Assembly: GCA_964610675.1 (NCBI GenBank)
Contig: CAZSWB010000001.1
Coordinates: 1-24,507, forward strand
Source: an uncultured Candidatus Saccharibacteria bacterium
GTDB taxonomy: Bacteria; Patescibacteriota; Andersenbacteria; UBA10190
Direction of reading: 5' to 3'
DNA length: 24,507 nucleotides
Position numbers and translations under genes: made by a program. Positions 1-15,344 of the stretch are shown here, piece by piece (position 1 is the stretch's first letter; every line of letters starts with the position of its first letter). Below the pieces are notes generated by a model. The model made no database searches, was not told the DNA's origin, and saw nothing but the letters and a program-made list of their open reading frames with translations.

Positions 1-336
1 TCCATCGGAAAAGGAGATTTGCTTATTGTGGCCTCCGGTTCGGGGGAAACACAGACCATCTATGACATTGTTGCAATCGCTCATAAAAACGGTGCACGTA
101 TCGCACTCGTGACAGGAAATCTCGATTCAAAAATGGGAACACTTGCACATACAATTGTTCGCCTCTCCGCACCATCAAAAACGAAGCAGGTAGAAGGATT
201 CACATCTAGCCAACCCATGACAACTCTCAATGAGCAATGTCTGGGTATCCTATTTGAGTCAATGGTAATGATGCTTATGGCTCAAATGCGAGAAACACAT
301 GATACGATGTGGGCGAGGCATTCAAACTTAGAATAG
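1..336 (+). CDS. hxlB: SIS-domain sugar-phosphate isomerase, 6-phospho-3-hexuloisomerase (HxlB/Phi) family; 5' end lies outside the window
   Basis: Frame 1 is open from base 1 (SIGKGDLLIVASGSGET...). The GSGSGET-like loop, SQPMTTLNEQ (cf. QPMGSLFEQ) and C-terminal RHSNLE (cf. RHANLE) are HxlB signatures. The partner hxlA is not in the window. Confidence 0.85.
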   Translation, partial: SIGKGDLLIVASGSGETQTIYDIVAIAHKNGARIALVTGNLDSKMGTLAHTIVRLSAPSKTKQVEGFTSSQPMTTLNEQCLGILFESMVMMLMAQMRETHDTMWARHSNLE

Positions 337-343
337 TATACAT

Positions 344-1018
344 ATGCAACACACGCACTGTGCACTAGCGGCATCGATCATATGTGGGAATCCGTTAAAC
401 CTGAAAGCTGATCTTGCGGCATTAAAAAAAGGAAACATAGACTATATCCATTTCGACGTCATGGACGGAGTGTTTGTTCCTCGCTACGGATTATTTCCCG
501 AATATTTACGAGCGATCCGTTCTCAAACGAATATCCCCATAGAAGTGCATATGATGGTAGAAGATCCAGAGCCATATATTCAAGACTATGTTGATGCCGG
601 CGCAACCATTGTAACACCGCACATTGAACCGCTGAAGCATGCGCATCGCACCGTTATGCGCATTAAAAGCGCGGGAGTACAAGCGGGACTAGCCCTCAAC
701 CCGGGCACACCCCCCTCATCACTCAATTATATTCTTGAAGATTTAGATCTTGTCATGTTGATGGCAATTAATCCGGGCATTGTCGGGCATAAAATAATTC
801 CACGTACTATGGAAAAGATTGCCGATGTGCGAAAACGAATTAATGCGACCGGAAAGGACATATTATTGGAGATTGACGGCGGGGTAACTCCTGAGAGCGG
901 AATACAAATGGTGAATGCTGGAGCGAATATGCTTGTTTGCGGTACTGGGACTATTTTTCAACCGCCAGCAACACTTGATAAAAAGATTCGAGAGTTTCGA
1001 AAAACGCTTGTACTATGA
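344..1018 (+). CDS. Ribulose-phosphate 3-epimerase superfamily protein with an AlsE-like (hexulose-6-phosphate) phosphate-binding loop
   Basis: Metal ligand motifs HFDVMDG, VHMMV and EIDGGV, plus LALNPGTP and MAINPG. The final loop VCGTGTIF is one residue longer than RPE VAGSAIF and matches the length of AlsE IVGTSGLF. Confidence 0.9.
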   Translation: MQHTHCALAASIICGNPLNLKADLAALKKGNIDYIHFDVMDGVFVPRYGLFPEYLRAIRSQTNIPIEVHMMVEDPEPYIQDYVDAGATIVTPHIEPLKHAHRTVMRIKSAGVQAGLALNPGTPPSSLNYILEDLDLVMLMAINPGIVGHKIIPRTMEKIADVRKRINATGKDILLEIDGGVTPESGIQMVNAGANMLVCGTGTIFQPPATLDKKIREFRKTLVL

Positions 1019-1731
1019 AAAAAGGTTCTCCATACAAACTCCTTATCACCACTTCGGGAACAGGATCTCGTCTGGGAGAACTTACCAAACATACAAACAA
1101 AGCCCTGGTTCCCATAGCGGACAAACCGACTATCTCACACATTCTTGACCTGTATGACCCCTCAATACCGCTTGTAATCACCTTAGGCTATTTACCTGAG
1201 CAGGTACGTACGTTTTTCAAGGATAAATACCCTAATCGAGATGTCACTTTTGCTGTCGTTGATCCCTATGAAGGTCCGGGAAGCAGCCTGGGATATTCCC
1301 TGTTGCAGGCGGAGCAACTGCTTCAGTGTCCTTTCATTTTCCATGCGTGCGATACGATTTTAACACAAGAAGTGCCTGTCCCCGATGAAAATTGGGCTGC
1401 TGGCTATGTACCTCCACAAGGAATGGATGCTACGCAATATAGGACGCATAAGGTGCAAGATGGACGAATTATCACTTTGCGCGATAAAGGAGAGACTGAC
1501 TTCAATGCTATTCATATTGGTGTGACCGGTATTGCGTCGTATAAGGAATTCTGGAGCATATTACGTACTCTGTATGAAAGCAATCCGGAAGATTCCGGAT
1601 GGTCGGATGTGCACGTCGTAGACGCGATGATTAAACAAGGTATTCCATTTCAAAGCGTGTTGTTTGATCCATGGCTCGATACGGGTAGCCCCGAAGCACT
1701 AGCAAAACACAGGAATATATCGGGCAAATAA
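1015..1731 (+). CDS. Sugar-phosphate nucleotidyltransferase (NTP_transferase/GT-A fold), stand-alone
   Basis: ITTSGTGSRLGELTKHTNKALV is the GxGxRL...K signature; also HACD and C-terminal WLDTG. ATGA overlap with the epimerase. Confidence 0.9.
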   Translation: MKKGSPYKLLITTSGTGSRLGELTKHTNKALVPIADKPTISHILDLYDPSIPLVITLGYLPEQVRTFFKDKYPNRDVTFAVVDPYEGPGSSLGYSLLQAEQLLQCPFIFHACDTILTQEVPVPDENWAAGYVPPQGMDATQYRTHKVQDGRIITLRDKGETDFNAIHIGVTGIASYKEFWSILRTLYESNPEDSGWSDVHVVDAMIKQGIPFQSVLFDPWLDTGSPEALAKHRNISGK

Positions 1732-1924: not shown

Positions 1925-3505
1925 ATGGCGTACAAAAAACAAAAGTTGACTGTCCTTATCACTACCTCCGGAGTTGGGAGTAAGCTCGGGGATCTCACTA
2001 CCTATACAAACAAGGCACTTGTGAAAATAGGGAAAAAACCTGCCCTTTCATACATCATAGAGTCTTATCCGAAGGACACTCATTTTGTTATCACTCTGGG
2101 ACACTTTGGCGAACATGTGAAAGAATTCGTATCTTTGGCGTACCCAAAACTATCCGTGAAGTTCGTGCCTGTTCGCAAGTTTAGCGGGACAGGAAGCAGC
2201 CTTGTGCGCTCGATGGTGTCGGCGAGGAAGTATCTTCAAAAACCGTTCATTTATCATGCTTCGGATACCATTGTTCATCAACGTATTGTTGCTCCCTCTG
2301 AGAACTGGGCCGGAGGGCACAAATCTGATACTACTTCCCAATACGCTTCATTTGATGTTTTGGACGGTACTGTGCAAGCATTCTATCCAAAAGGGAATTT
2401 GAATCCTGATTTTTTGCATATCGGCCTTGTTGGAGTTAACGATTATAAAGAGTTTTGGAAGTGTGCACAAAAGCTGCTTGTGTCGCATCCGGATCGGGAG
2501 GATTTGAGCGATGTTGACATATTGTCTGCCATGCTTGAGCGAGGGTCAAGGATTGTCCCGCAATCTTTTAGTCCTTGGTACGATGTGGGGAATGTAGACA
2601 GTTTGCATGCTACGCGACAAGCAATACATGATTCATTTCATATTCTCGATAAGCCATCAGAATCTATTTATCTTTTCGAGCGATCTGTTATTAAATTCTT
2701 TAGTGATGCCGGTATTGTGCGAGATCGCGTACGCCGCGCAAATGCTTTAGGAAAACTTGTTCCAGTAATTGAAAAATCTTCCAAACACTTTTATCGGTAT
2801 AAGTATGTAGAAGGAGATCTTCTTGCATCAGTTATTACTCCGACCACTTTTCCTCATTTTCTTAATTGGGCATTCACGAATATGTGGAAACCAGAGACAG
2901 AAGTATCTCAAGAAAAGTTTCGCGCATTTTGCTATGACTTTTATTACACAAAAACTCTACAGCGAACCAATGAATTTTTAACAACACGGAATATTAAAGA
3001 TAGAGCATCTCTAATAAATGGCGAGCATGTCCCCTCTTTATCAAAATTGCTTCAAATGGTTGATTTTCATGCGCTCGCCGATGCGAAGCAGACATCGTTC
3101 CATGGGGACTTTATCCCAGACAATATCATTAAAACTTCAAAAGGATATACATTGCTCGATTGGCGGCAGAATTTCGGCGGGCTTCTTCGTGGAGGGGACA
3201 TGTATTACGATATTGCAAAACTGAATCACAATCTCGTGATTAATCACGATATGATAAATAACAATCATTTTAGCATTGAACGCAGAGGGAATAGCGTTAC
3301 CTGTGATATTTTCCGAAGCCAACGGCTGGTAGAGTGCCAAGAGGTACTAAAACTCTATTGTATCGAACAAGGACTCGATCTTCATAAAATTGAAATACTG
3401 ACTCCAATCCTCTGGCTTAATATGTCACCCCTTCATTCCCATCCATATGACGTATTTCTGTACTATTTCGGTAAGCTTCAGCTTTGGAAAGCACTGCACC
3501 GATAA
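1925..3505 (+). CDS. Bifunctional nucleotidyltransferase plus APH/choline-kinase-like phosphotransferase
   Basis: N-terminal ITTSGVGSKLGDLTTYTNKALV...WYDVG. The C-terminal half has the Brenner motif HGDFIPDNI (3101 onward), LLDWR (3158) and GDMYYDIAKL. Confidence 0.88.
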   Translation: MAYKKQKLTVLITTSGVGSKLGDLTTYTNKALVKIGKKPALSYIIESYPKDTHFVITLGHFGEHVKEFVSLAYPKLSVKFVPVRKFSGTGSSLVRSMVSARKYLQKPFIYHASDTIVHQRIVAPSENWAGGHKSDTTSQYASFDVLDGTVQAFYPKGNLNPDFLHIGLVGVNDYKEFWKCAQKLLVSHPDREDLSDVDILSAMLERGSRIVPQSFSPWYDVGNVDSLHATRQAIHDSFHILDKPSESIYLFERSVIKFFSDAGIVRDRVRRANALGKLVPVIEKSSKHFYRYKYVEGDLLASVITPTTFPHFLNWAFTNMWKPETEVSQEKFRAFCYDFYYTKTLQRTNEFLTTRNIKDRASLINGEHVPSLSKLLQMVDFHALADAKQTSFHGDFIPDNIIKTSKGYTLLDWRQNFGGLLRGGDMYYDIAKLNHNLVINHDMINNNHFSIERRGNSVTCDIFRSQRLVECQEVLKLYCIEQGLDLHKIEILTPILWLNMSPLHSHPYDVFLYYFGKLQLWKALHR

Positions 3506-4303
3506 TTATTTCCGAGTTAGCTTAAAATTCTTTGTGAATCGTGTGGATGAATGGGTTGAAATATCCCACTCGCTTCTCATTTGAGAAAAAGCTTGCTCTA
3601 CGGTATGTGCGAGGTTGGACTTGCATCCATAATCATCAAATAGAATGTATGCCGTCGGTGCGATCAAGTTGAGTTTTGCCATTAAGTCCATTGCCTCCAG
3701 AAACGACTGAGATACATCGCAGTCGATATGGATGAAGCAGAATTGTCTTATCTCTCTTTTTCCAAGATATGAGCGAATTCCGTCAATATCATTAAATCGA
3801 TACTTACCGATATGAATATTTTTCTTCGTGACCGGATATACCTGTTTGCTTCCCATAACATTGTCTTCGCACTGTCTGTATGATGTATTCGAGAATGCGT
3901 ACTTGCGAAAAGAACCATCATCGTACGGCAGTCCTTCGAAACTATCAAGACCCACGATTCTTTTTGAGAATACTCCCTGCCTCTCAAGCAGATACGCTAT
4001 CCAGAGAAGTGAAAATCCTCGGTACGTTCCAAATTCAGCAAGGTCCCCAGGGATATTTTCGCAATCTTTAAGAATGTCTCGAAAGTTGATAAGTCGTCCA
4101 ATTTGATGTTCGAGCTCACGATCTGCGCTCAGCTTTGTTTTCTCGTAGTACGCAGATGTCAGATCTTCGGGTTTATATATCATATCAAGCCGAGAAGAGT
4201 GATTCTGGCGTTTTTCATAGCTTATTTTTCGCAAATAGAGTTTGTAAATAAGCGGGATCTTGAGGAGCGACTCTTTTATGGCAGTGATCGAATCTTTTTT
4301 CAT
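3506..4303 (-). CDS. TylF/MycF/NovP-family sugar O-methyltransferase
   Basis: GDLAEFGTYRG, GLDSFEGLP, FIHIDCD and ILFDDYG are the characteristic TylF-family motifs. Confidence 0.85.
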   Translation of the reverse strand: MKKDSITAIKESLLKIPLIYKLYLRKISYEKRQNHSSRLDMIYKPEDLTSAYYEKTKLSADRELEHQIGRLINFRDILKDCENIPGDLAEFGTYRGFSLLWIAYLLERQGVFSKRIVGLDSFEGLPYDDGSFRKYAFSNTSYRQCEDNVMGSKQVYPVTKKNIHIGKYRFNDIDGIRSYLGKREIRQFCFIHIDCDVSQSFLEAMDLMAKLNLIAPTAYILFDDYGCKSNLAHTVEQAFSQMRSEWDISTHSSTRFTKNFKLTRK

Positions 4304-4790: not shown

Positions 4791-5464
4791 ACGTATTTTT
4801 TGCGTTGCGCAACTACTACGAGCTCATTTGTGAATATAAGAGGCGTTATAGGCGAGCTTAATTGGACTAATTTTCCAACATTTGTGATGTGTGTTTTCTT
4901 TATCACTTGAAAACCACTCATGCGAAGCATGTACTTGATGAGTCCGAGCGTAAAAAAGGTATGATGTTTGTAAATTCCACTTCTTCGATACATCACTTCT
5001 TGATATGAAATTCCAAACAGTGTTTTCAGCCGTACCATAACAGAAACATCATTAGGGATGGTAACAAGAAGATGCCCTCCTGGCTTTACTACTCGAGATG
5101 CTTCTTTGATAACCGAAATAGGGTCAAATACATGTTCAATGATGTCACCGGCAAGAACGACATCGTATGTACCATCTGGACCGGGAATGCCATCGTCAAG
5201 GTCTACAACCTCAGCGTCCACTCCCACAGAACGAGCCTTTTCAACTGCAGTAGCTGAGAAATCAATCCCCTTTACCGCATAACCGAGCGCGGCAACCTCT
5301 TTTGTAATCATGCCGCTGCCACATCCTATGTCTAAAAGTGTTGGCGTTCCGCCATGGTTGCGCTTGATCTCCTTGAGATAGGAAAAAATGATTTCTTCCT
5401 CTCGTCGAATTTGGCAGTAGTCCTCCTTCGCGTATCGAGTGTCTTCAATGGCTGCTGGTTTCAT
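4787..5464 (-). CDS. Class I SAM-dependent methyltransferase (Methyltransf_11/23-like)
   Basis: LLDIGCGSG, GIDFS, YDVVLAGDIIEHVFDP, VKPGGHLLVTIPN. Confidence 0.9.
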   Translation of the reverse strand: MKPAAIEDTRYAKEDYCQIRREEEIIFSYLKEIKRNHGGTPTLLDIGCGSGMITKEVAALGYAVKGIDFSATAVEKARSVGVDAEVVDLDDGIPGPDGTYDVVLAGDIIEHVFDPISVIKEASRVVKPGGHLLVTIPNDVSVMVRLKTLFGISYQEVMYRRSGIYKHHTFFTLGLIKYMLRMSGFQVIKKTHITNVGKLVQLSSPITPLIFTNELVVVAQRKKYV

Positions 5465-6201
5465 AGCGGTTTTTGTATAATGAGAACATAGTTTAACGGA
5501 AGGCTTTTATAAATGAGATTGTGAAATTTTTGAATTGGCAACCACTTACTGTTGTTGCAGAGCGCATCAATGACTTCATCAGCCGTCATACCGATACAAT
5601 TGAGAATAAGATAGATCGGTGAAAAAATATATGGGATCCCAAACGATGCAAAAAAATAGTTAATCAACTGGCACAATGTGCCGATATACCCTGACGTCTC
5701 TTTAAGAGTTTTTACCTGAAAATCCTTAAATGTCACAATTAATCCAAACTTGGTAAATCTCCAAAAGTCTACATTCCATGTTGGGTGATTTACGGTGTTA
5801 AAATTTTTGTAGGGAGCATTGTTGCTTGGAAGCGGTATCGAATGGACTTTCATAGCCATGGGTACCGAAATGAAGCATTCTCCACCCGGCTTTAATAAAC
5901 GAAATATTTCATTGACGGTTCCGGAGAGCTTTTCCGTATGTTCCAGAGTTTGATTGAGTACAATCCCATCAAAGGAGGAATCTTCAAGAGGGATTGACGA
6001 GCTGTCCGCAACAATGTCACACTCGGGTGTTTTGATATGGTCAACACCGATATATGATCCCGTAAAATATTTTGCATATGGCTTGTGTCCACATCCAATA
6101 TCCAGAATTTTAGATTCCTTGTCGTACGCTCTCGCAAACGACTTCATTTCCCTGTCGACTGGAATTCTTGCAAGATAGTTACTTGATAGCAGTGACGGCA
6201 T
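5461..6201 (-). CDS. Class I SAM-dependent methyltransferase of the type common in polysaccharide loci
   Basis: ILDIGCGHKPY, YIGVD, FDGIVLNQTLEH, LKPGG and DFWRFT. Confidence 0.88.
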   Translation of the reverse strand: MPSLLSSNYLARIPVDREMKSFARAYDKESKILDIGCGHKPYAKYFTGSYIGVDHIKTPECDIVADSSSIPLEDSSFDGIVLNQTLEHTEKLSGTVNEIFRLLKPGGECFISVPMAMKVHSIPLPSNNAPYKNFNTVNHPTWNVDFWRFTKFGLIVTFKDFQVKTLKETSGYIGTLCQLINYFFASFGIPYIFSPIYLILNCIGMTADEVIDALCNNSKWLPIQKFHNLIYKSLPLNYVLIIQKPL

Positions 6202-7183
6202 GGAAGACTTCTACATATTGGCGAATCATTGGCTCTATTCGAAAGCGCTCCTCGGCTATTTCTCGACTATTTAGCCTGTAGGAGGGTTGGTTGTTCATAA
6301 TCTTATATATATTATCAGCGAATGCAGTTAAATCAAGTTGTCGTTTTTCATAAAAAGCATGGCCGTGTGCGGGTATAAGTTCACTATTTACACCCGGTTT
6401 TGTGATCTCTGTCATTGCTCCGTCCGCTACTCCGCAAATGGGGAGTCCGCACGCCATGGCTTCAATAATGGTATTCGGACACGGAGGGTTCTGGTGGGTG
6501 TATAAAAAGACGTGCGCCGATTGAAGGTGCCGGGAAAGCCTATCGTTGCTAATCACCTGATGGAATCGAAGATAAGGTACATCTTTGTATGTTTGCGGAA
6601 TGTGGGCGATAGACTGACTGAAGTCTCCTACAATATCACAATAGAAGTTTTTGGTATATGTTTTCGCATATATATCGAGGGCCTTGATGATTGGAATAAT
6701 TTGGTCTTCTCTGCGGAAGCGGGAAACCGTCACAAACACTTGAGTATCTGGAGTGGTTTTCCAGGCTGATGGAATAAACCTGCTCGTGTCTACACCGTTA
6801 TAGACAATGCGCCACCGAGTGTCATTTCTCTTTCCTAAAAAAATATCACAGCAATATTTTGAGTATTTGCTTTGATATACGGTATAGGTTGAAAAATAGC
6901 GATGAATAATTTTTGCAGGGAGATTGTATAGATAGTAGAGTTTCCCGGCAACCGTGCTTGGGTAGTACGTTCCGTCTAGGCGATGGATGATTGGCTTATT
7001 ATGGATTTTTGCATGGATGAGGTATCTGAGCGGACACGATACAAGTACCAGCAAGACATCATAATCCGGTGAGAATGAAAAGCTTACGGTGTCTTTGTTG
7101 CCGTTCAAGCCTGCCTGCAGTTTTTTTGCGAACGTGGATGTTCCTCCTGTCGCACGCATCTTGATTGGGAGAAAGACCTTCAT
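6179..7183 (-). CDS. Glycosyltransferase family 4 with non-canonical P-X7-E motif
   Basis: N-terminal GG loop (ATGGTSTF), IVYNGVDT, NPPCPNTIIEAMACGLPI. Confidence 0.88.
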   Translation of the reverse strand: MKVFLPIKMRATGGTSTFAKKLQAGLNGNKDTVSFSFSPDYDVLLVLVSCPLRYLIHAKIHNKPIIHRLDGTYYPSTVAGKLYYLYNLPAKIIHRYFSTYTVYQSKYSKYCCDIFLGKRNDTRWRIVYNGVDTSRFIPSAWKTTPDTQVFVTVSRFRREDQIIPIIKALDIYAKTYTKNFYCDIVGDFSQSIAHIPQTYKDVPYLRFHQVISNDRLSRHLQSAHVFLYTHQNPPCPNTIIEAMACGLPICGVADGAMTEITKPGVNSELIPAHGHAFYEKRQLDLTAFADNIYKIMNNQPSYRLNSREIAEERFRIEPMIRQYVEVFHAVTAIK

Positions 7184-7986
7184 GTGCGGAAGAAGCTATT
7201 TTTTATGGATGTTGGAAATACCATTATGGCGATCGGTTCAAGGAGGAATAAGTAGTTCCATACAGGAGCGTGATACATGCGGATATATTTGATTCTTGTG
7301 CGAATTCCTTGCCTCATTTGTTCTTTACTGTGTGTTGACGAAATAGTATCCGTGGTATTGCGAGAACATAAAACGCGAGGAATATTATACATCTTAGTGT
7401 GTGGGAGTAATCGGAACCATAGGTCGCGGTCTTGCCCATACGTAACGTTCGCGTCATAACCACCGACTTGCTCTACGATGTCCTTGCGGAATATAACACA
7501 GCTATGTCCGAATGGGTTTTGTCGAAATATAGTTTTCTTGATTCGATTGTCGGTTTCCGGGAGCCGAAATACTCTCTTTGAATTGCGGTACGTATTTTCA
7601 TACCAGCACCCGACAATCCCGTATTCAGGATGCAGGCGAAGGTATTCGACTTGCATTGCAAGTTTTCCAGCGGCCCACGTGTCATCAATATCGATACGCG
7701 CGATGAGGGGAAATGATGTTTCATTCAGTCCGATACCAAGCGATTTTGTAAGGCCAATATTTATCCGATTACGGATTATTTTCATTGGAATCTCACTTAT
7801 GCGTTGCCATTGCAGTAGCTCTTCGTACGTGGCATCCGTTGAACCGTCGTCGACGCACACGATTTCTGATGGTTTGTAAGTTTGAGCGGCAATACTCTGC
7901 ATGCATTTTTGAATATGCGCGTGTCCGTTATACACAGCAACGAGAACGGAAACCTCAGCCTTTATTTCGGAAGTACTTGAATCCAT
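7180..7986 (-). CDS. Glycosyltransferase family 2 (GT-A)
   Basis: VSVLVAVYNG, VDDGSTD, NIGLTKSL, ARIDIDD (DxD), GGYD and QDRDLWFR. Confidence 0.92.
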   Translation of the reverse strand: MDSSTSEIKAEVSVLVAVYNGHAHIQKCMQSIAAQTYKPSEIVCVDDGSTDATYEELLQWQRISEIPMKIIRNRINIGLTKSLGIGLNETSFPLIARIDIDDTWAAGKLAMQVEYLRLHPEYGIVGCWYENTYRNSKRVFRLPETDNRIKKTIFRQNPFGHSCVIFRKDIVEQVGGYDANVTYGQDRDLWFRLLPHTKMYNIPRVLCSRNTTDTISSTHSKEQMRQGIRTRIKYIRMYHAPVWNYLFLLEPIAIMVFPTSIKNSFFRT

Positions 7987-8927
7987 TTTTCAATGATATT
8001 GGAAATATGAAATTGGTGCGAACGCTCCCAATTTTTAGCGCCGAATTGCTTCCGCTTGAGTTGACTTTTGATCAATTGATCAATGTAATGAGTAAATTCG
8101 TCAGGATTAGTTGCAATCATATTATCATCTCCCAATATCTCTCCAAATGCCCCGTGTCTGTTCGCTACTATCGGGAGACCGCAGGCCAGTGCGTCTAGAA
8201 TAGCGTTTGGCATATTGTCCAGAACTGACCAGTATACAAATATATCTAATGATGCCAGCTTGCTCACAATATCCTTTTGGTGTCCATGAAATACTATTTT
8301 ATACTTAAAATCCTTCTTGTGCTTTTGAGTAAACTCTCGGATCTTTTCGAGATATGTTCCATCACCATAAATATGAAATTCCAAGGATTCTATTGAATCT
8401 AATTTTTGAATGGCATACATGATTGTAATACTTCCTTCGGCCTTTTGTAGAAAGTCAAAACTCATGCTTGTGCCGATTTTAAGCGGATGGATCGATTCCC
8501 GAACTGGAGTATAATTCGGCAATTTCTCTATCGCATTTGGTATTACATGTGCGCATGTGAGCTTAAGCTGTATTTTTAAAAAATCTGAAGGAACTACAAT
8601 ATGTTTTGAACAGTAAATGCCGTATGGATACAGAAGTGCTAGGGGATTGCGCAATGAGAATTCTTCTCGGTAATCGCCACGAACATTGAGAATAAAGCGG
8701 TCCCTGTTGGGAATCCATAAGAATGGAATACCTGAAACAATGATATCCGTCCTGTTAAAATGAAGTCGTATCCAATGAAACAAACCACTTACGTGATATG
8801 TCGTGTACCCGTGCTCATGCAGTGTCTTTGCAAGTAGCGCATGTTGTTTATACGGCCCTCCTGATCGGGGAGAGAGGAAATACACTACTCTGTTCGTATC
8901 CCGGCTTTGTCCAGATGTACTTTCCAT
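7962..8927 (-). CDS. Glycosyltransferase family 4 with non-canonical D-X7-D motif
   Basis: RSGGP, VVPSDFLK, VIPNAI, IYGDG, LDNMPNAILDALACGLPIV. Confidence 0.85.
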   Translation of the reverse strand: MESTSGQSRDTNRVVYFLSPRSGGPYKQHALLAKTLHEHGYTTYHVSGLFHWIRLHFNRTDIIVSGIPFLWIPNRDRFILNVRGDYREEFSLRNPLALLYPYGIYCSKHIVVPSDFLKIQLKLTCAHVIPNAIEKLPNYTPVRESIHPLKIGTSMSFDFLQKAEGSITIMYAIQKLDSIESLEFHIYGDGTYLEKIREFTQKHKKDFKYKIVFHGHQKDIVSKLASLDIFVYWSVLDNMPNAILDALACGLPIVANRHGAFGEILGDDNMIATNPDEFTHYIDQLIKSQLKRKQFGAKNWERSHQFHISNIIEKWIQVLPK

Positions 8928-11131
8928 ATGAATACGTTTTCATTATCGGAATAGACTTTTTCAAAAATCTCGGGATTTTTATCAATCCCAGGGAATTCAC
9001 TCTCTTGACGGTCACCAGTAAAGCTGGACTTATATGGTCGAGATATGTAGGGATTGCGAGGATGCGTGTGTGCATAATACAGGTAGATTGGAGTCGAGGC
9101 ATATTCTTTTGGAATTTTCTGCTCTTTAATGGCAATGTCCGTATCATTTTTGGAAGGTGCTATTGAGGTTGAACACTCAAGAGCAACTTTTTGTTGGATG
9201 TAAGAAAGGTAACCGGGGTCGCATATACTCACGTTATCGTAGCTGGTATTTGATGACGCAGCATTGTCGGAGGTGCTTTTTTCAGTTCCCTCCGTTGCTT
9301 TTGCAGATATATTTAAAGAATTTACAGGTTTATCTGGATTTAGTTGGAAATTCAGCAGCGTGACTAGATGCTTTACAATTAGATTGCTATCTGCGGTTGC
9401 AAAGTACTCTGGTTCAATATGTATTCTATTGGATTGCGTGTGAAAACGCAGCAGGTTTTTTGATGATGCTGAAAAAATAATGCGATTCTTCGGCAAGTTA
9501 TTGATAATCCATTGTGCTGCCTGCTCTTCATATTCAGGAGTGGTAAATCGTCCCAAGTATGATACATATCCCGCCCCGAAAATGTTAATCGCAATCGATG
9601 CTGCAAGGACGATCATGATACCTCTTCTAAAATATGGAAATGCAAATTGATCAATATATTTGAGAAGTCCGAGAAGGGGGAATAGGAGGATAACGCCCAA
9701 AATCTGCCATGCCCGGTCAGGGAGATATGCTACGTTGCTCGTTCGCGGTGCAACCTCCGCAATAATAAAAAAGAAAACGATCAGCAGGAGCGGAATAATT
9801 GATCCAATGGTACGAATATTTTTTGTGATAAATGCTCGAAACTTACTGCTCGCAAGAACACCGACGATGTATGCCAGTATAATTGCAAGTGATAATGCGC
9901 CAGCATAGAATGCGTAATATTTCATTACTCCGGTTGCACCTGCCCATCCCACCGGATTTTGGTCAATATTTACATACTGTGCCGGAAACTGCCAATTTTG
10001 ATTTCCTTGTATGAATCGAGCAATCAGCTTATTTCCCAAAAATCTGATGCTTTCAACTATCCTACCGAGGCCGAGTTTTTCAACCCATGGAATAAGCAGG
10101 AAGAGAAAGATGAGTCCTTGGATTTTGTGATTCCACAGTATTTTCCGATACAGTATACCCATACACAGTATCCACGGTATGACTACCATCAGAAAAAGCG
10201 GATGGTAGAGGCTTCCTACTAGCGCGCTTATTCCAATTGCATACATGATCAGTCTGTCTTTTGTTGCGGCGTATGCCGCGCACAACCCCACTACGAAATA
10301 CATATATAGTAATGCCATCAGTTGCTGACGCACTATTTCGAACTCAAATATGATTACCGGTGAAGTAAGCGCTGCTCCAAGGAAAATATATAGCAACGGT
10401 CTTCGTAGAGTTCTTCCCGCAAGATAGAGTGGAGGTATGGTAAGTAATGAGAGAAACGGAAAGACATACTTGGAAATTGCATAAAAACTTGCTGATGACA
10501 GGTAGTGAAAAGCTGTAATAAAAACGGTATAAAGTGTTCTATCGCCATCATCAATTACGTACAAATTTCTTGCGGAAATGACCTCTTCGAATTTGATGAG
10601 CCAAGAGTAGGGATCAAGAACAGCTAAAAAGGGATATCTTGTAACGTTAAAAATATGTACTGCAAATACGAGCAGTAACCCCACGGTTACCGGATGGAGA
10701 AGAATGGTGCGATAAGGAAATGCGAGTGGTAATTCTTGAGTGGGGACATCCACAATTATTCGAGAAAAATATTGAACAGCTTTTTTCCAAAGGAGTGGAA
10801 TCAACGTAATGCTTACGTAGAAAAAAAGAGGTATCCATTGGTTGATATATCCAAATACCGTATAAACTCCCAACAGGATTGCCGGTACGAAAAATAACGA
10901 AGCGAGAATACTAAGAGCAATATAGAGGGGGATACTTAACGTCCTTTTTTGCAGCTTTTGTACCAGGTACATAATGTTTGCACCCGAAAGAAAGAACATA
11001 TGAATACTCGTAATAATCGTGCCAAGTAGCACAATTGCGATGTGGCTCGATCTAAGTCCTATGAGAAAAATTATTACAAGGAGAATGCTAGCGTAAGCAT
11101 TGGTTTTTATGAGCTGTTTTTCAAGTGTCAT
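8885..11131 (-). CDS. Large polytopic membrane protein (748 aa), putative GT-C-fold glycosyltransferase with a soluble C-terminal domain
   Basis: About 13 or more hydrophobic segments, an acidic loop motif LDPYSW, and a C-terminal domain starting EEQAAQWIINNLP. No WWDYG motif. Confidence 0.55.
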   Translation of the reverse strand: MTLEKQLIKTNAYASILLVIIFLIGLRSSHIAIVLLGTIITSIHMFFLSGANIMYLVQKLQKRTLSIPLYIALSILASLFFVPAILLGVYTVFGYINQWIPLFFYVSITLIPLLWKKAVQYFSRIIVDVPTQELPLAFPYRTILLHPVTVGLLLVFAVHIFNVTRYPFLAVLDPYSWLIKFEEVISARNLYVIDDGDRTLYTVFITAFHYLSSASFYAISKYVFPFLSLLTIPPLYLAGRTLRRPLLYIFLGAALTSPVIIFEFEIVRQQLMALLYMYFVVGLCAAYAATKDRLIMYAIGISALVGSLYHPLFLMVVIPWILCMGILYRKILWNHKIQGLIFLFLLIPWVEKLGLGRIVESIRFLGNKLIARFIQGNQNWQFPAQYVNIDQNPVGWAGATGVMKYYAFYAGALSLAIILAYIVGVLASSKFRAFITKNIRTIGSIIPLLLIVFFFIIAEVAPRTSNVAYLPDRAWQILGVILLFPLLGLLKYIDQFAFPYFRRGIMIVLAASIAINIFGAGYVSYLGRFTTPEYEEQAAQWIINNLPKNRIIFSASSKNLLRFHTQSNRIHIEPEYFATADSNLIVKHLVTLLNFQLNPDKPVNSLNISAKATEGTEKSTSDNAASSNTSYDNVSICDPGYLSYIQQKVALECSTSIAPSKNDTDIAIKEQKIPKEYASTPIYLYYAHTHPRNPYISRPYKSSFTGDRQESEFPGIDKNPEIFEKVYSDNENVFIWKVHLDKAGIRTE

Positions 11132-13331: not shown

Positions 13332-15344
13332 ATGAAACGGGTATATAGGGAGCATATCATTGCGCTTCTGGCTTTTGTTTTACTTACTGTAGTTATGACT
13401 TTTCCGGTTGCTTTCCGGATGCAAGAAGATATTGCGGGTTCGGGTGGAGATCCATGGCAGTCGATGTGGCGTTTTGAAGAAAAAGCAGAATCCGGCTTCA
13501 GCGGGTTTGTAACTGACGTGCTCGGCAGAGGAGAGCCGCGGCTTGCAAACCTATCCGTGTGGCCTTGGATGCCGCTTCATCTTCTTTTCGGCCAGCCGTT
13601 CACGTATAACTTGGTGTGGCTCCTACATTTTATTCTTGCGGGATACGCAATGGCATTGCTGGTGAAGATTCTTACGGTTGGCAAAAGTATTTTAGAACCT
13701 GCTCCGCTCTTGGCGGGCCTTATGTATATGCTCATTCCATATCATGTTGCTCACAGCTTGGGTCATTTTGGAGCCATGCAATTGCAATGGATTCCTTTTA
13801 TCGCGATTGCAGCTCTATCGTTGTTCCGATCCCCCAGTATTTGGCGTGCCAGTGTTCTCGGCATATTGCTTTCCATTCAGGCGTGGACGGAGCACCACTA
13901 CATAGTGTGGATTGCGCTCTTTGGTCTTATCGCCGGATTTGTGTATAGGAATGAAGTGAAACAAAAACTGAGTTTGCTCGTTCCTTCCCTCGGTATCTTG
14001 TCGCTCATCCTTATAATCGGAATTCTCTTTCCCTTTATCCCCACAATTCGCCTTGCGGCGACGCAAAGCAGCGCGTTGGAACTGGGAATGACGCAGACGA
14101 TTCGGTTCTCCGCGGATCTTTTCTCTTTCATTACTCCGCCATCCACTCATCCGATTTGGGGTGACGCATCAGATTCGCTTTTTGGAAAATACTTTACGGG
14201 AAACAAATCGGAAAGCGTGCAGTATCTTGGAATCAGCGTTGTAATCGCCATCTTGTTTTTTCATCGCCATATTCCGCAAAAACAAAAAAGGCTTTGGTTT
14301 GCAACCATACTCTTTTTTGGAATCATGAGCTTGGGACCCGTGTTGCATGTGTTTGGAAGGGAAACGGACATCCCTTTGCCGTACGCGATCGTCGCGAACG
14401 CTCCGGTGTTCTCGGCAATTCGCGTGATTGCGCGTGCGGGAGTAATGGTGAGCTTCGCGGCAGCCGTGTTGTTCGGCTGGGTGATCGCCACCAACCCGCC
14501 GGATCGTCGTGCTACTTTTCGTTTCGTGCCGTATCTCATTGGCGGCATCATTCTGTTGGAGTTTATGTTCTTTGTGTTTCCGATGCAATCCGCAAAACTC
14601 TCACCGATCTATGCCGCAATAGAAGGTATCCCCGGTTCTCACATTCTCGAGCTGCCAGCGGCTACGAACTACACTGCCGCGTCGCGTTCCTTGTATGCGA
14701 GCAGGATTCATGGGAAAGAAGTGCTGGGCAATATTGCGCTCGAGAGAGGACAGAGCGCAGAAGCGTATGACATCGTACGATCCTTTCCCGCACTTCGACA
14801 GCTTCTTTTTCTTCGAACGACGGACTTGAGTGAAATGCGTACGGAGTTTTTTTCACAAGATTTGATAGAAACGTTGCCTGACGTGATGAAATACCTTAAC
14901 ACCTATGCGATTATCATTCACACCGATTCATTGTCGGATGTTCAAAATACGGCCGTGCGTGAGTTCCTGGAGAGAGATACAGGATTTGTAAGTACGTCGT
15001 ATGAGGATGCCGTGCTGGTTACGTTGGACCCACAGAATACGTCGCGTACCGATGGCGTGTTTCTTGTTCGCAAAAATGGATGGGAACATGTGTGTCGCGA
15101 TAAACAGGTAAACAGCGTGTTTGCGGAAGTCTCATCGCATGCGAGCGTTTCGGTTATAAACACGAATTCGTATCCGGTCGCAATCGAGCTTCAGTACGAA
15201 TTAACTCCGGAGTCACAAGGAGAGCTGTTGGCGGAAACACGCGTTGTGGTTCAACCGGGGGAGCATGAAGTTGTGTTCACTCATACCGGAGAAGGAACAT
15301 CGATCATCAAAAACCCTGAAATGCACGTTACCCCGGTTCTATGA
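13332..15344 (+). CDS. Polytopic membrane protein (670 aa), YfhO-like putative GT-C glycosyltransferase
   Basis: GGDPWQSMW acidic loop, IPYHVAHSLGHFGAMQLQWIPF, FSADLFSF and IRVIAR, about 12 hydrophobic segments, then a soluble C-terminal domain. Confidence 0.6.
   Translation: MKRVYREHIIALLAFVLLTVVMTFPVAFRMQEDIAGSGGDPWQSMWRFEEKAESGFSGFVTDVLGRGEPRLANLSVWPWMPLHLLFGQPFTYNLVWLLHFILAGYAMALLVKILTVGKSILEPAPLLAGLMYMLIPYHVAHSLGHFGAMQLQWIPFIAIAALSLFRSPSIWRASVLGILLSIQAWTEHHYIVWIALFGLIAGFVYRNEVKQKLSLLVPSLGILSLILIIGILFPFIPTIRLAATQSSALELGMTQTIRFSADLFSFITPPSTHPIWGDASDSLFGKYFTGNKSESVQYLGISVVIAILFFHRHIPQKQKRLWFATILFFGIMSLGPVLHVFGRETDIPLPYAIVANAPVFSAIRVIARAGVMVSFAAAVLFGWVIATNPPDRRATFRFVPYLIGGIILLEFMFFVFPMQSAKLSPIYAAIEGIPGSHILELPAATNYTAASRSLYASRIHGKEVLGNIALERGQSAEAYDIVRSFPALRQLLFLRTTDLSEMRTEFFSQDLIETLPDVMKYLNTYAIIIHTDSLSDVQNTAVREFLERDTGFVSTSYEDAVLVTLDPQNTSRTDGVFLVRKNGWEHVCRDKQVNSVFAEVSSHASVSVINTNSYPVAIELQYELTPESQGELLAETRVVVQPGEHEVVFTHTGEGTSIIKNPEMHVTPVL

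What the first reader, a model, noticed from the sequence alone, without database searches (positions are those of the whole stretch)
344..1018. Epimerase has the longer AlsE-type phosphate loop, pointing to a six-carbon substrate
Seen: the loop after the eighth strand (941-958) reads G-T-G-T-I-F. Established: pentulose-specific RPEs have G-S-A-I-F, whereas E. coli D-allulose-6-P 3-epimerase AlsE has the one-residue-longer G-T-S-G-L-F, a loop implicated in hexulose versus pentulose specificity. The N-terminal SIICGN also resembles AlsE SLMCMD more than RPE SILSAD, while PRYGL and NPGIVGH match neither. Inference: an automated pipeline would call this rpe, but it is probably a hexulose-6-P epimerase of distinct specificity.
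Basis: partly seen in the sequence, partly recalled or inferred. Interest (0 to 1): 0.65.

Follow-up and report, generated by a model that had tools for sequence, protein, structure and literature searches.

The report
Cassette-bound sugar-phosphate epimerase, not housekeeping Rpe
This gene encodes a second, specialised copy of a sugar-phosphate epimerase that always travels with three other enzymes in an unstudied, widely spread gene cassette, which probably makes an activated rare six-carbon sugar for the cell surface.

Summary
ORF 344-1018 (224 aa) is an intact RPE-family epimerase, and its loop after strand 8 (G-T-G-T-I-F, 941-958) is one residue longer than in E. coli Rpe and equal in length to E. 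coli AlsE.

In 163 family members the loop is bimodal. The long form co-varies with the AlsE-type Cys motif after strand 1.

The protein belongs to a distinct subfamily with its own invariant motifs, FV(P/S)R-x-G-L and NPGI(V/L)GHK. This subfamily forms a clan outside canonical short-loop RPEs.

It is an accessory second copy. The genome has another RPE-family gene in an rpiB-rpe-tkt operon, and only 4 of 13 other congeneric genomes carry an orthologue.

All 51 subfamily loci found, across many phyla, have a PHI-like isomerase next to the epimerase. Most also show the nucleotidyltransferase-kinase fusion and a KdsC-like phosphatase nearby. The kinase half of the fusion is distantly related to phage RB69's AfhE counterpart, from the UDP-arabinofuranose route.

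A six-carbon substrate is likely (about 0.6) but unproven. Loop length alone is not decisive, and no assay exists.

Earlier follow-ups in this scan found the same cassette on other DNA.

The parts
344..1018 (+). RPE-family epimerase, 224 aa. It keeps the metal and catalytic residues H36, D38, H69 and D178 and the Met cushion M40, M71 and M140. It belongs to the Arg47 / long-loop subfamily.
   Evidence: Pfam PF00834 scores 205 bits. The AF2 model has pLDDT 86.7 and an RPE fold.
374..391 (+). Strand-1 motif S-I-I-C-G-N. It is AlsE-like in having Cys at the fourth position; canonical RPE has S-I-L-S-A-D.
473..493 (+). Loop after strand 2, F-V-P-R-Y-G-L. Arg47 replaces the Asn of both canonical RPE and AlsE (FVPN). 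The Arg is kept in all 51 cassette-linked loci.
770..793 (+). Capping and phosphate loop after strand 6, N-P-G-I-V-G-H-K. RPE has NPGFGGQ and AlsE has DPGFAGQ.
941..958 (+). Phosphate loop after strand 8, G-T-G-T-I-F. It is one residue longer than in E. coli Rpe and the same length as in AlsE.
1..336 (+). C-terminal 111 aa of a 6-phospho-3-hexuloisomerase-like SIS protein, cut by the contig end. Full-length orthologues score 188-195 bits on TIGR03127 (cut-off 160).
1015..1731 (+). Stand-alone nucleotidyltransferase. Its start overlaps the epimerase stop (ATGA). It is a lineage-specific extra copy of the fusion's N-domain and is absent from G012 and from most other loci.
1925..3505 (+). Fusion of a LicC/MurU-like nucleotidyltransferase with an APH-fold kinase. 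It has the same architecture as phage AfhE.
   Evidence: The paper is PMC13326640.
4314..4790 (-). KdsC/YrbI-type HAD sugar-phosphate phosphatase, the fourth conserved cassette member.
3506..4303 (-). TylF-like O-methyltransferase. It is a frequent but not constant neighbour of the cassette.

Best explanation
The gene encodes a catalytically intact 3-epimerase from a distinct RPE-family subfamily, marked by a long strand-8 loop, Arg47 and the NPGI(V/L)GHK loop. It is not the pentose-phosphate-pathway enzyme.

It is one step of a conserved, horizontally spread four-gene cassette: a PHI-like SIS isomerase, this epimerase, a nucleotidyltransferase-kinase fusion and a KdsC-like phosphatase. The cassette sits inside surface-glycan loci.

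Inferred mechanism:
1. A ketose phosphate from central metabolism, most likely fructose-6-P, is epimerised next to the carbonyl. This uses the usual metal-stabilised enediolate chemistry and would give allulose-6-P.
2. The SIS partner isomerises the product.
3. The kinase domain adds a second phosphate.
4. The HAD enzyme removes the original terminal phosphate.
5. The nucleotidyltransferase domain makes an NDP-sugar, for example NDP-allose or NDP-altrose.

This follows the logic of NDP-heptose synthesis and of the phage AfhE/AfhF route.

Shown here: the fold, the catalytic residues, the subfamily, the second-copy status and the cassette linkage. Inferred: the substrate, the order of steps and the product.
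For: Enzyme intact:
- It has the RPE fold and all catalytic residues.

Second, accessory copy:
- The other RPE-family gene lies between rpiB and split transketolase genes.
- Orthologues occur in only 4 of 13 other congeneric genomes and in none of the 21 genomes of other genera of the family, while a distant RPE-family match is found in nearly all of them.
- A second RPE-family gene was found in all eight other cassette genomes searched for the family: three congeners and five from other phyla. In the four Bacteroidota the second gene is a canonical rpe scoring 254-270 bits.

Distinct subfamily:
- The subfamily forms a clan with support 98 (FastTree) and 88 (IQ-TREE).
- The short-loop RPEs form a separate clan with support 94.

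Cassette linkage:
- All 51 loci that keep Arg47 have the PHI-like gene adjacent. Of the 49 with the exact FVPR motif, 40 also show the kinase fusion and the HAD phosphatase, and most of the incomplete ones are cut by contig ends.
- All 27 loci that lack the Arg lack the cassette.

Six-carbon hints:
- The strand-8 loop has the AlsE length.
- The partner passes the HxlB equivalog cut-off, yet no HPS was found in this genome.
- The closest phage homologue of the fusion (43% identity, 97% coverage) sits next to a HAD phosphatase and a mannose-6-P-isomerase-type cupin instead of the PHI plus epimerase pair.
- ROK-kinase fusions to long-loop RPE-family proteins exist.

Pathway precedent:
- The kinase domain matches the RB69 counterpart of AfhE by hhalign (probability 89.5%, E 2e-6).
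- The AfhE/AfhF steps are described in PMC13326640.
Against: - No biochemical data exist for any member of the subfamily.
- Overall sequence scores are higher against rpe models (TIGR01163 211 bits) than against the AlsE model (158 bits).
- RPE crystal structures are the best sequence and fold matches.
- The tree cannot say whether the subfamily arose inside the AlsE-type group.
- One complete genome (G049) uses a long-loop enzyme as its only RPE-family gene.
- From my memory of Chan et al. 2008, RPE and AlsE are mutually promiscuous.
- A true PHI reaction would give an acyclic 3-hexulose-6-P, which does not fit an anomeric kinase. The proposed aldose-forming role of the SIS partner is therefore an assumption.
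- The three substrate loops are the low-confidence parts of the model.
Confidence: 0.6

Rival explanations
1. It is a dedicated ribulose-5-P/xylulose-5-P epimerase. It feeds a five-carbon version of the cassette: xylulose-5-P is isomerised to an aldopentose-5-P and then turned into an NDP-pentofuranose, as in the phage UDP-arabinofuranose route.
For: - The best HMM and structure matches are RPEs.
- The only characterised enzyme with the same fusion architecture, AfhE, acts on arabinose-5-P.
- Glycan loci often carry redundant copies of housekeeping enzymes (general knowledge).
- G049's sole RPE-family gene is long-loop.
Against: - Every cassette genome searched for the family already has another RPE-family gene.
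- The partner isomerase is PHI-type (hexulose) rather than KdsD-type (pentulose).
- The loop has the AlsE length, and the changes in the strand-2 and strand-6 loops are invariant across the subfamily.
- The closest phage variant of the fusion uses a hexose-6-P isomerase cupin.
Confidence: 0.2
2. It acts on the PHI product. D-arabino-3-hexulose-6-P is ribulose-5-P extended at C1, and it would be epimerised at C4. Together with PHI the pair would convert fructose-6-P to tagatose-6-P or to a 3-hexulose epimer. The substrate is still six-carbon, but this is not AlsE chemistry.
For: - The gene order is PHI then epimerase, with tight coupling.
- The PHI-like proteins pass the HxlB equivalog cut-off, and no HPS is present to use the 3-hexulose.
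- The changes in the strand-1 and strand-2 loops could make room for the extra carbon at the head of the substrate (inference).
Against: - The distance from carbonyl to phosphate in 3-hexulose-6-P equals that in ribulose-5-P. That predicts a short strand-8 loop, but the loop is long.
- The product would be a ketose or an acyclic sugar, which fits poorly with an AfhE-like anomeric kinase.
Confidence: 0.12
3. It is the organism's ordinary housekeeping Rpe that merely sits next to a glycan locus.
For: - Pipelines annotate it this way.
- It scores within 2 bits of the TIGR01163 cut-off.
Against: - It was found in only 5 of the 14 genomes of the genus, this one included, and in none of the 21 genomes of other genera of the family.
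- A separate RPE-family gene lies in the rpiB-tkt operon.
- Its linkage to the cassette is invariant across phyla.
Confidence: 0.03

Closest known systems
E. coli AlsE, D-allulose-6-phosphate 3-epimerase (PDB 3CT7/3CTL; NCBIfam NF007266)
   Same: - Same fold and the same four metal/catalytic residues.
- Strand-8 phosphate loop of equal length (G-T-x-G/T-hydrophobic-F).
- Cys at the fourth position of the strand-1 motif.
- Both belong to the non-canonical, long-loop half of the family.
   Different: - Only 28% identity, and 158 bits against a cut-off of 271.
- FVPR instead of FVPN, NPGIVGHK instead of DPGFAGQ, and DGG instead of DGS.
- A biosynthetic cassette context instead of the catabolic als operon.
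- No resolved clade with AlsE.
Canonical ribulose-5-phosphate 3-epimerase (E. coli Rpe; TIGR01163; PDB 2FLI, 1RPX, 7SBJ)
   Same: - Highest overall sequence and fold similarity: 40% identity to E. coli Rpe and TM 0.92 to 7SBJ and 2FLI.
- The catalytic machinery is identical.
   Different: - The strand-8 loop is one residue longer.
- The strand-1, strand-2 and strand-6 loop motifs are all changed.
- It lies outside the short-loop clan (SH-aLRT 94).
- It is an accessory second copy and is never found in a pentose-phosphate operon.
Phage Afh route to UDP-D-arabinofuranose: arabinose-5-P isomerase, AfhE nucleotidyltransferase-kinase and AfhF HAD phosphatase (PMC13326640)
   Same: - Same pathway logic and same fusion architecture: an SIS isomerase, then a kinase, then a HAD phosphatase, then a nucleotidyltransferase.
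- The kinase domain is remotely homologous to RB69 gp52 (hhalign probability 89.5%).
   Different: - The phage route has no epimerase.
- Its isomerase is KdsD-type rather than PHI-type.
- By the paper's fold matches its HAD resembles a heptose-bisphosphate phosphatase rather than KdsC.
- The nucleotidyltransferase domain match is weak (probability 61%).
- tblastn against the phage collection found no match in RB69.
NDP-glycero-manno-heptose pathway (GmhA, HddA/HldE, GmhB, HddC)
   Same: It has the same four activities in the same logic: a ketose-phosphate isomerase of the SIS family, an anomeric kinase, a terminal phosphatase and a nucleotidyltransferase (established knowledge).
   Different: - All four proteins belong to other subfamilies or folds.
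- The heptose pathway has no 3-epimerase.
AgmD of angustmycin biosynthesis (PMC8599513)
   Same: It is an RPE-family enzyme used biosynthetically to make allulose-6-P from fructose-6-P. This shows that AlsE chemistry is recruited into anabolic pathways.
   Different: - Its downstream steps differ: a pyrophosphokinase and an adenine phosphoallulosyltransferase.

Membership tests
Ribulose-phosphate 3-epimerase family (Pfam PF00834) | Match over the gathering score, a (beta/alpha)8 fold, and the His-Asp-His-Asp metal/catalytic set | tested here: met
   It scores 205 bits against a cut-off of 21. H36, D38, H69 and D178 are aligned. The fold matches RPE structures at TM 0.92.
Canonical Rpe (NCBIfam TIGR01163 equivalog) | Score at or above the curated cut-off | tested here: not met
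   It scores 210.7 bits against a cut-off of 212.6, a narrow miss. The looser subfamily model NF004076 is passed (186 against 165).
Canonical Rpe | Short strand-8 loop (G-S-A-I-F type) together with SILSAD and NPGFGGQ | tested here: not met
   The loop has 8 residues rather than 7. The motifs read SIICGN and NPGIVGHK.
Canonical Rpe | Sole or pentose-phosphate-linked copy, placed in the clade of housekeeping RPEs | tested here: not met
   The other copy lies in the rpiB-rpe-tkt operon. The short-loop clan excludes this protein with SH-aLRT 94.
AlsE (NCBIfam NF007266 equivalog) | Score at or above the curated cut-off | tested here: not met
   It scores 158 bits against a cut-off of 271.
AlsE | Strand-8 loop one residue longer than in RPE | tested here: met
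   The loop has the same length as in E. coli AlsE in the MAFFT alignment.
AlsE | Clade with E. coli AlsE, and an allose/allulose catabolic context | tested here: inconclusive
   FastTree places it in the same half of the tree, but the AU test cannot separate 'inside the AlsE type' from 'a third clan'. The context is biosynthetic, not the als operon.
AlsE | Preference for allulose-6-P/fructose-6-P over ribulose-5-P | not testable with these tools
   This needs an enzyme assay.
Afh-type sugar-activation cassette | Nucleotidyltransferase-kinase fusion homologous to AfhE | tested here: inconclusive
   The architecture is the same. hhalign gives probability 89.5% for the kinase domain and 61% for the nucleotidyltransferase domain against RB69 gp52/53. 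tblastn against the phage collection gave no match in RB69.
Afh-type sugar-activation cassette | KdsD-type arabinose-5-P isomerase, a HAD phosphatase resembling heptose-bisphosphate phosphatase, and no epimerase | tested here: not met
   The isomerase is PHI-type. The HAD phosphatase is KdsC-type. An epimerase is present.
RuMP pathway pair HxlA/HxlB | A 3-hexulose-6-phosphate synthase encoded alongside PHI | tested here: not met
   There is no TIGR03128 match in this 96%-complete genome. In the orthologous loci of G005, G012 and G011 the genes upstream of PHI are a flippase, an SDR epimerase/dehydratase, or a gene with no family match, never HPS.

The most novel reading that the evidence does not exclude
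The Arg47 / long-loop subfamily is a new specificity class of RPE-fold epimerase. Paired with a neofunctionalised PHI-type isomerase, it converts fructose-6-P into a rare aldohexose-6-P (allose or altrose configuration) or a rare hexulose-6-P. That product feeds an AfhE-like kinase/nucleotidyltransferase and a KdsC-like phosphatase. The result would be a previously undescribed de novo route to an NDP-activated rare hexose, used in the surface glycans of many CPR lineages, Bacteroidota, Verrucomicrobiota and others.
Probability: 0.45. Interest if true: 0.7.

Novelty: new variant of a known kind. Interest (0 to 1): 0.55.

Why it matters
Automated annotation labels these genes as rpe, so metabolic reconstructions of tiny-genome CPR bacteria may credit them with a pentose-phosphate step that this gene probably does not perform.

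The subfamily has simple sequence markers: the Arg after F-V-P, the NPGI(V/L)GHK loop and the long C-G-T loop. These markers flag an uncharacterised nucleotide-sugar cassette in many phyla.

Working out the substrate would have three benefits:
- It would test, in a natural third lineage, the idea that strand-8 loop length sets pentulose versus hexulose preference.
- It would identify an unknown sugar in the surface glycans of uncultured bacteria.
- It might supply new enzymes for rare-sugar (allulose, allose, tagatose) production.

Tried and rejected
Context was obtained through the genome search, the fetch from genomes and the search for related loci instead.
- Chan et al. 2008 could not be read. 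A full-text search for the loop statement found nothing.
- A literature search for PHI plus nucleotidyltransferase in polysaccharide loci found nothing relevant.
- A reverse RuMP role (PHI with HPS making ribulose-5-P, followed by Rpe) was rejected. No HPS is in the genome, and none lies next to PHI in the orthologous loci.
- The fold search did not discriminate RPE from AlsE.
- The AU test on 'subfamily plus short-loop clan' turned out to be uninformative, because three clans give a single unrooted topology.
- The context of G049's only RPE-family gene was not informative.
- tblastn of the fusion against phages did not reach RB69. Only a profile comparison did.

Full report
OBSERVATION. The ORF at 344-1018 (+, 224 aa) is real. 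Bases 941-958 encode G-T-G-T-I-F. Pfam assigns the protein to the ribulose-phosphate 3-epimerase family (205 bits). In NCBIfam it falls 2 bits short of the rpe equivalog (210.7 against 212.6), passes a looser rpe subfamily model, and scores only 158 against 271 on the AlsE model.

I took E. coli Rpe, AlsE and SgcE by reference from MG1655. In the alignment, the window protein's V-C-G-T-G-T-I-F has the length of AlsE's I-V-G-T-S-G-L-F. It is one residue longer than Rpe's V-A-G-S-A-I-F. HMMER alignments to four of the five RPE crystal-structure sequences shown place the same one-residue gap. The catalytic His36, Asp38, His69 and Asp178 and the three Met residues are conserved.

IS THE LOOP MEANINGFUL? 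I surveyed 163 family members. They comprised 129 representatives from a search of 1.8 billion proteins clustered at 50% identity, the three E. coli enzymes, and other loci. The loop is strictly bimodal, with 82 sequences at 7 residues and 81 at 8.
- The short loop goes with SILSAD-type strand-1 motifs and NPGFGGQ.
- The long loop goes with S-x-(M/I)-C-x-(D/N) and PGF(A/S)GQ, as in AlsE.

On a tree built without the loop columns, the trait needs only 5 changes among 160 rows. The role of this loop in hexulose versus pentulose preference (the AlsE deletion mutants of Chan et al. 2008) is from my memory of that paper, which the library does not hold.

One caution applies. Genome G049 (100% complete) has a single RPE-family gene and it is of the long-loop type. 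Loop length alone therefore does not exclude a ribulose-5-P role.

A DISTINCT SUBFAMILY. Close relatives (74-86% identity) come from Moranbacteria and Andersenbacteria MAGs, followed by a wider group at 49-61%. All share invariant features found in neither canonical RPE nor AlsE:
- F-V-(P/S)-R-x-G-L after strand 2, where the others have F-V-P-N.
- N-P-G-I-(V/L)-G-H-K after strand 6.
- L-V-C-G-T-(G/S)-x-I-(F/Y) after strand 8.

The subfamily is a clan (FastTree 98; IQ-TREE with a site-heterogeneous model 88). The short-loop RPEs form a separate clan (94) that excludes it. FastTree places the subfamily in the long-loop half together with E. coli AlsE. An AU test cannot distinguish 'inside the AlsE type' from 'a third clan'.

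An AlphaFold model (pLDDT 86.7) has the RPE barrel. The three substrate loops are its least confident parts. Foldseek does not discriminate RPEs (TM 0.92) from AlsE (0.89).

NOT THE HOUSEKEEPING ENZYME. The assembly is 859 kb and 96% complete. It holds a second, divergent RPE-family gene on contig 21, lying between rpiB and split transketolase genes.
- Among 13 other genomes of the genus, only 4 carry an orthologue of the window gene. Three of them hold two RPE-family genes by the family model; the fourth orthologue is a fragment at a contig end.
- None of the 21 genomes of other genera of the family has an orthologue, while a distant RPE-family match is found in nearly all of them.
- Five cassette-bearing genomes from Bacteroidota and Verrucomicrobiota also have a second RPE-family gene. 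In the Bacteroidota it is a canonical one scoring 254-270 bits.

THE CASSETTE. Upstream, cut by the contig end, is a PHI-like SIS protein. Full-length orthologues pass the HxlB equivalog cut-off (188-195 against 160) and best match B. subtilis YckF. No hexulose-phosphate synthase is present in the genome.

Downstream genes:
- A nucleotidyltransferase whose start overlaps the epimerase stop.
- A 526-aa fusion of a nucleotidyltransferase with an APH-fold kinase.
- On the other strand, a KdsC-type HAD phosphatase and methyltransferases, followed by many glycosyltransferases.

In congeners the order PHI, epimerase, (extra NT), fusion, HAD is kept. The surrounding genes are flippases, methyltransferases and glycosyltransferases.

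A scan of 185,579 species genomes returned 78 loci.
- All 51 loci that keep the Arg have the PHI-like gene adjacent.
- Of the 49 with the exact FVPR motif, 40 show all four genes, and most of the incomplete ones are cut by contig ends.
- The 27 loci that lack the Arg have no cassette.

The carriers span many CPR lineages, Bacteroidota, Verrucomicrobiota, Pseudomonadota, Ignavibacteriota, Spirochaetota and one Nanobdellota MAG. The sample is biased by the search patterns, but the association is absolute within it.

HOW IT PROBABLY WORKS. The four non-epimerase activities match the logic of NDP-heptose synthesis. They also match the recently described phage route in which AfhE, a nucleotidyltransferase-kinase fusion, and AfhF, a HAD phosphatase, convert arabinose-5-P to UDP-arabinofuranose via a 1,5-bisphosphate (PMC13326640).

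A profile of the cassette fusion matches RB69 gp52, the kinase part, at probability 89.5% (E 2e-6). It matches gp53, the transferase part, only weakly at 61%. tblastn against the phage collection gave no match in RB69.

The closest phage homologue of the fusion (43% identity over 97% of its length, marine virus AG-345-E15) sits next to a HAD phosphatase and a mannose-6-P-isomerase-type cupin in place of the PHI plus epimerase pair. This suggests that this branch of the fusion family handles aldohexose phosphates made from fructose-6-P.

My best reading combines that variant with the AlsE-length loop, the hexulose-type partner and the existence of ROK-kinase fusions to long-loop RPE-family proteins. 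In this reading the epimerase converts fructose-6-P to allulose-6-P, the SIS partner isomerises it, and the kinase, phosphatase and transferase produce an NDP-hexose. I put the six-carbon reading at about 0.6.

The main rivals are:
- A pentulose substrate feeding an NDP-pentofuranose (0.2).
- C4 epimerisation of the PHI product 3-hexulose-6-P (0.12). That substrate is also six-carbon but predicts a short loop.
- A housekeeping role (0.03).

Arg47, His149 and Lys150 in the two capping loops might bind an extra anionic group on the substrate. I could not test this.

COMPARISON AND NOVELTY. The protein is a member of the RPE family. It fails the membership tests for canonical Rpe (cut-off, loop, motifs, context, clade) and for AlsE (cut-off, context, and an unresolved clade). 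It works like an AlsE-type 3-epimerase recruited into biosynthesis, as AgmD is in angustmycin synthesis (PMC8599513).

I rate it a new variant of a known kind. The cassette itself has been flagged and followed up several times in this scan on other DNA. The new contributions here are:
- the epimerase-level evidence (signature motifs, bimodal loop, clan separation, second-copy status);
- the cupin-isomerase phage variant as support for a six-carbon substrate.

Noticed in passing
G000 contig 21; L002:2200-3054 (+), stop at 2584-2586: The N-terminal transketolase subunit downstream of the divergent RPE-family gene carries an in-frame TGA inside the conserved G-Q-G-L-S-I-A-(stop)-G motif. This could be a sequencing error, a pseudogene or recoding. 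I did not resolve it.
   Followed up: partly
L117 (Marine virus AG-345-E15, MH319741.1) 5305-7536: A variant cassette in a marine virus has a small HAD phosphatase, a mannose-6-P-isomerase-type cupin and a nucleotidyltransferase-kinase fusion. The fusion is 43% identical to the window's. An SDR epimerase/dehydratase lies upstream and a GHMP kinase downstream.
   Followed up: partly
L094:6098-7675 and L096 (uncultured Eubacteriales, human gut MAGs): A ROK-family sugar kinase is fused to a long-loop RPE-family domain in a single 526-aa protein. This looks like an AlsK-AlsE-like fusion.
   Followed up: partly
L092:5954-7693 (Armatimonadales MAG); also L086 and L090: These loci encode 555-580-aa proteins with a C-terminal long-loop RPE-family domain. 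In L092 the N-terminal part is a xylose-isomerase-like TIM barrel (AP_endonuc_2). In L086 it has no Pfam match. L090 was not scanned against Pfam.
   Followed up: partly
window 1015-1731 versus 1925-2660: The stand-alone nucleotidyltransferase is a paralogue of the fusion's N-domain (about 44% identity to the G005 and G012 fusions in BLASTP). It is absent from G012 and from most cassette loci in other phyla, so it is a lineage-specific duplicate.
   Followed up: partly
window 8885-11131 (-) and 13332-15344 (+): Two large proteins (748 and 670 aa) inside the glycosyltransferase block have no Pfam match.
   Followed up: no
P0065 (Moraniibacteriota cluster representative): This orthologue has Asp in place of the metal-ligand His69 (E-V-D-M-M-V). 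It is otherwise 74% identical to the window protein.
   Followed up: no
L106:6164-7669 (Spirochaetales MAG): This outlier is only 40% identical but keeps F-V-P-R-L-G-L and has a PHI-like gene upstream. No kinase fusion or HAD phosphatase was found within the 14.7-kb locus held. The ORF as I extended it to the first upstream ATG is 502 aa; start not verified.
   Followed up: no
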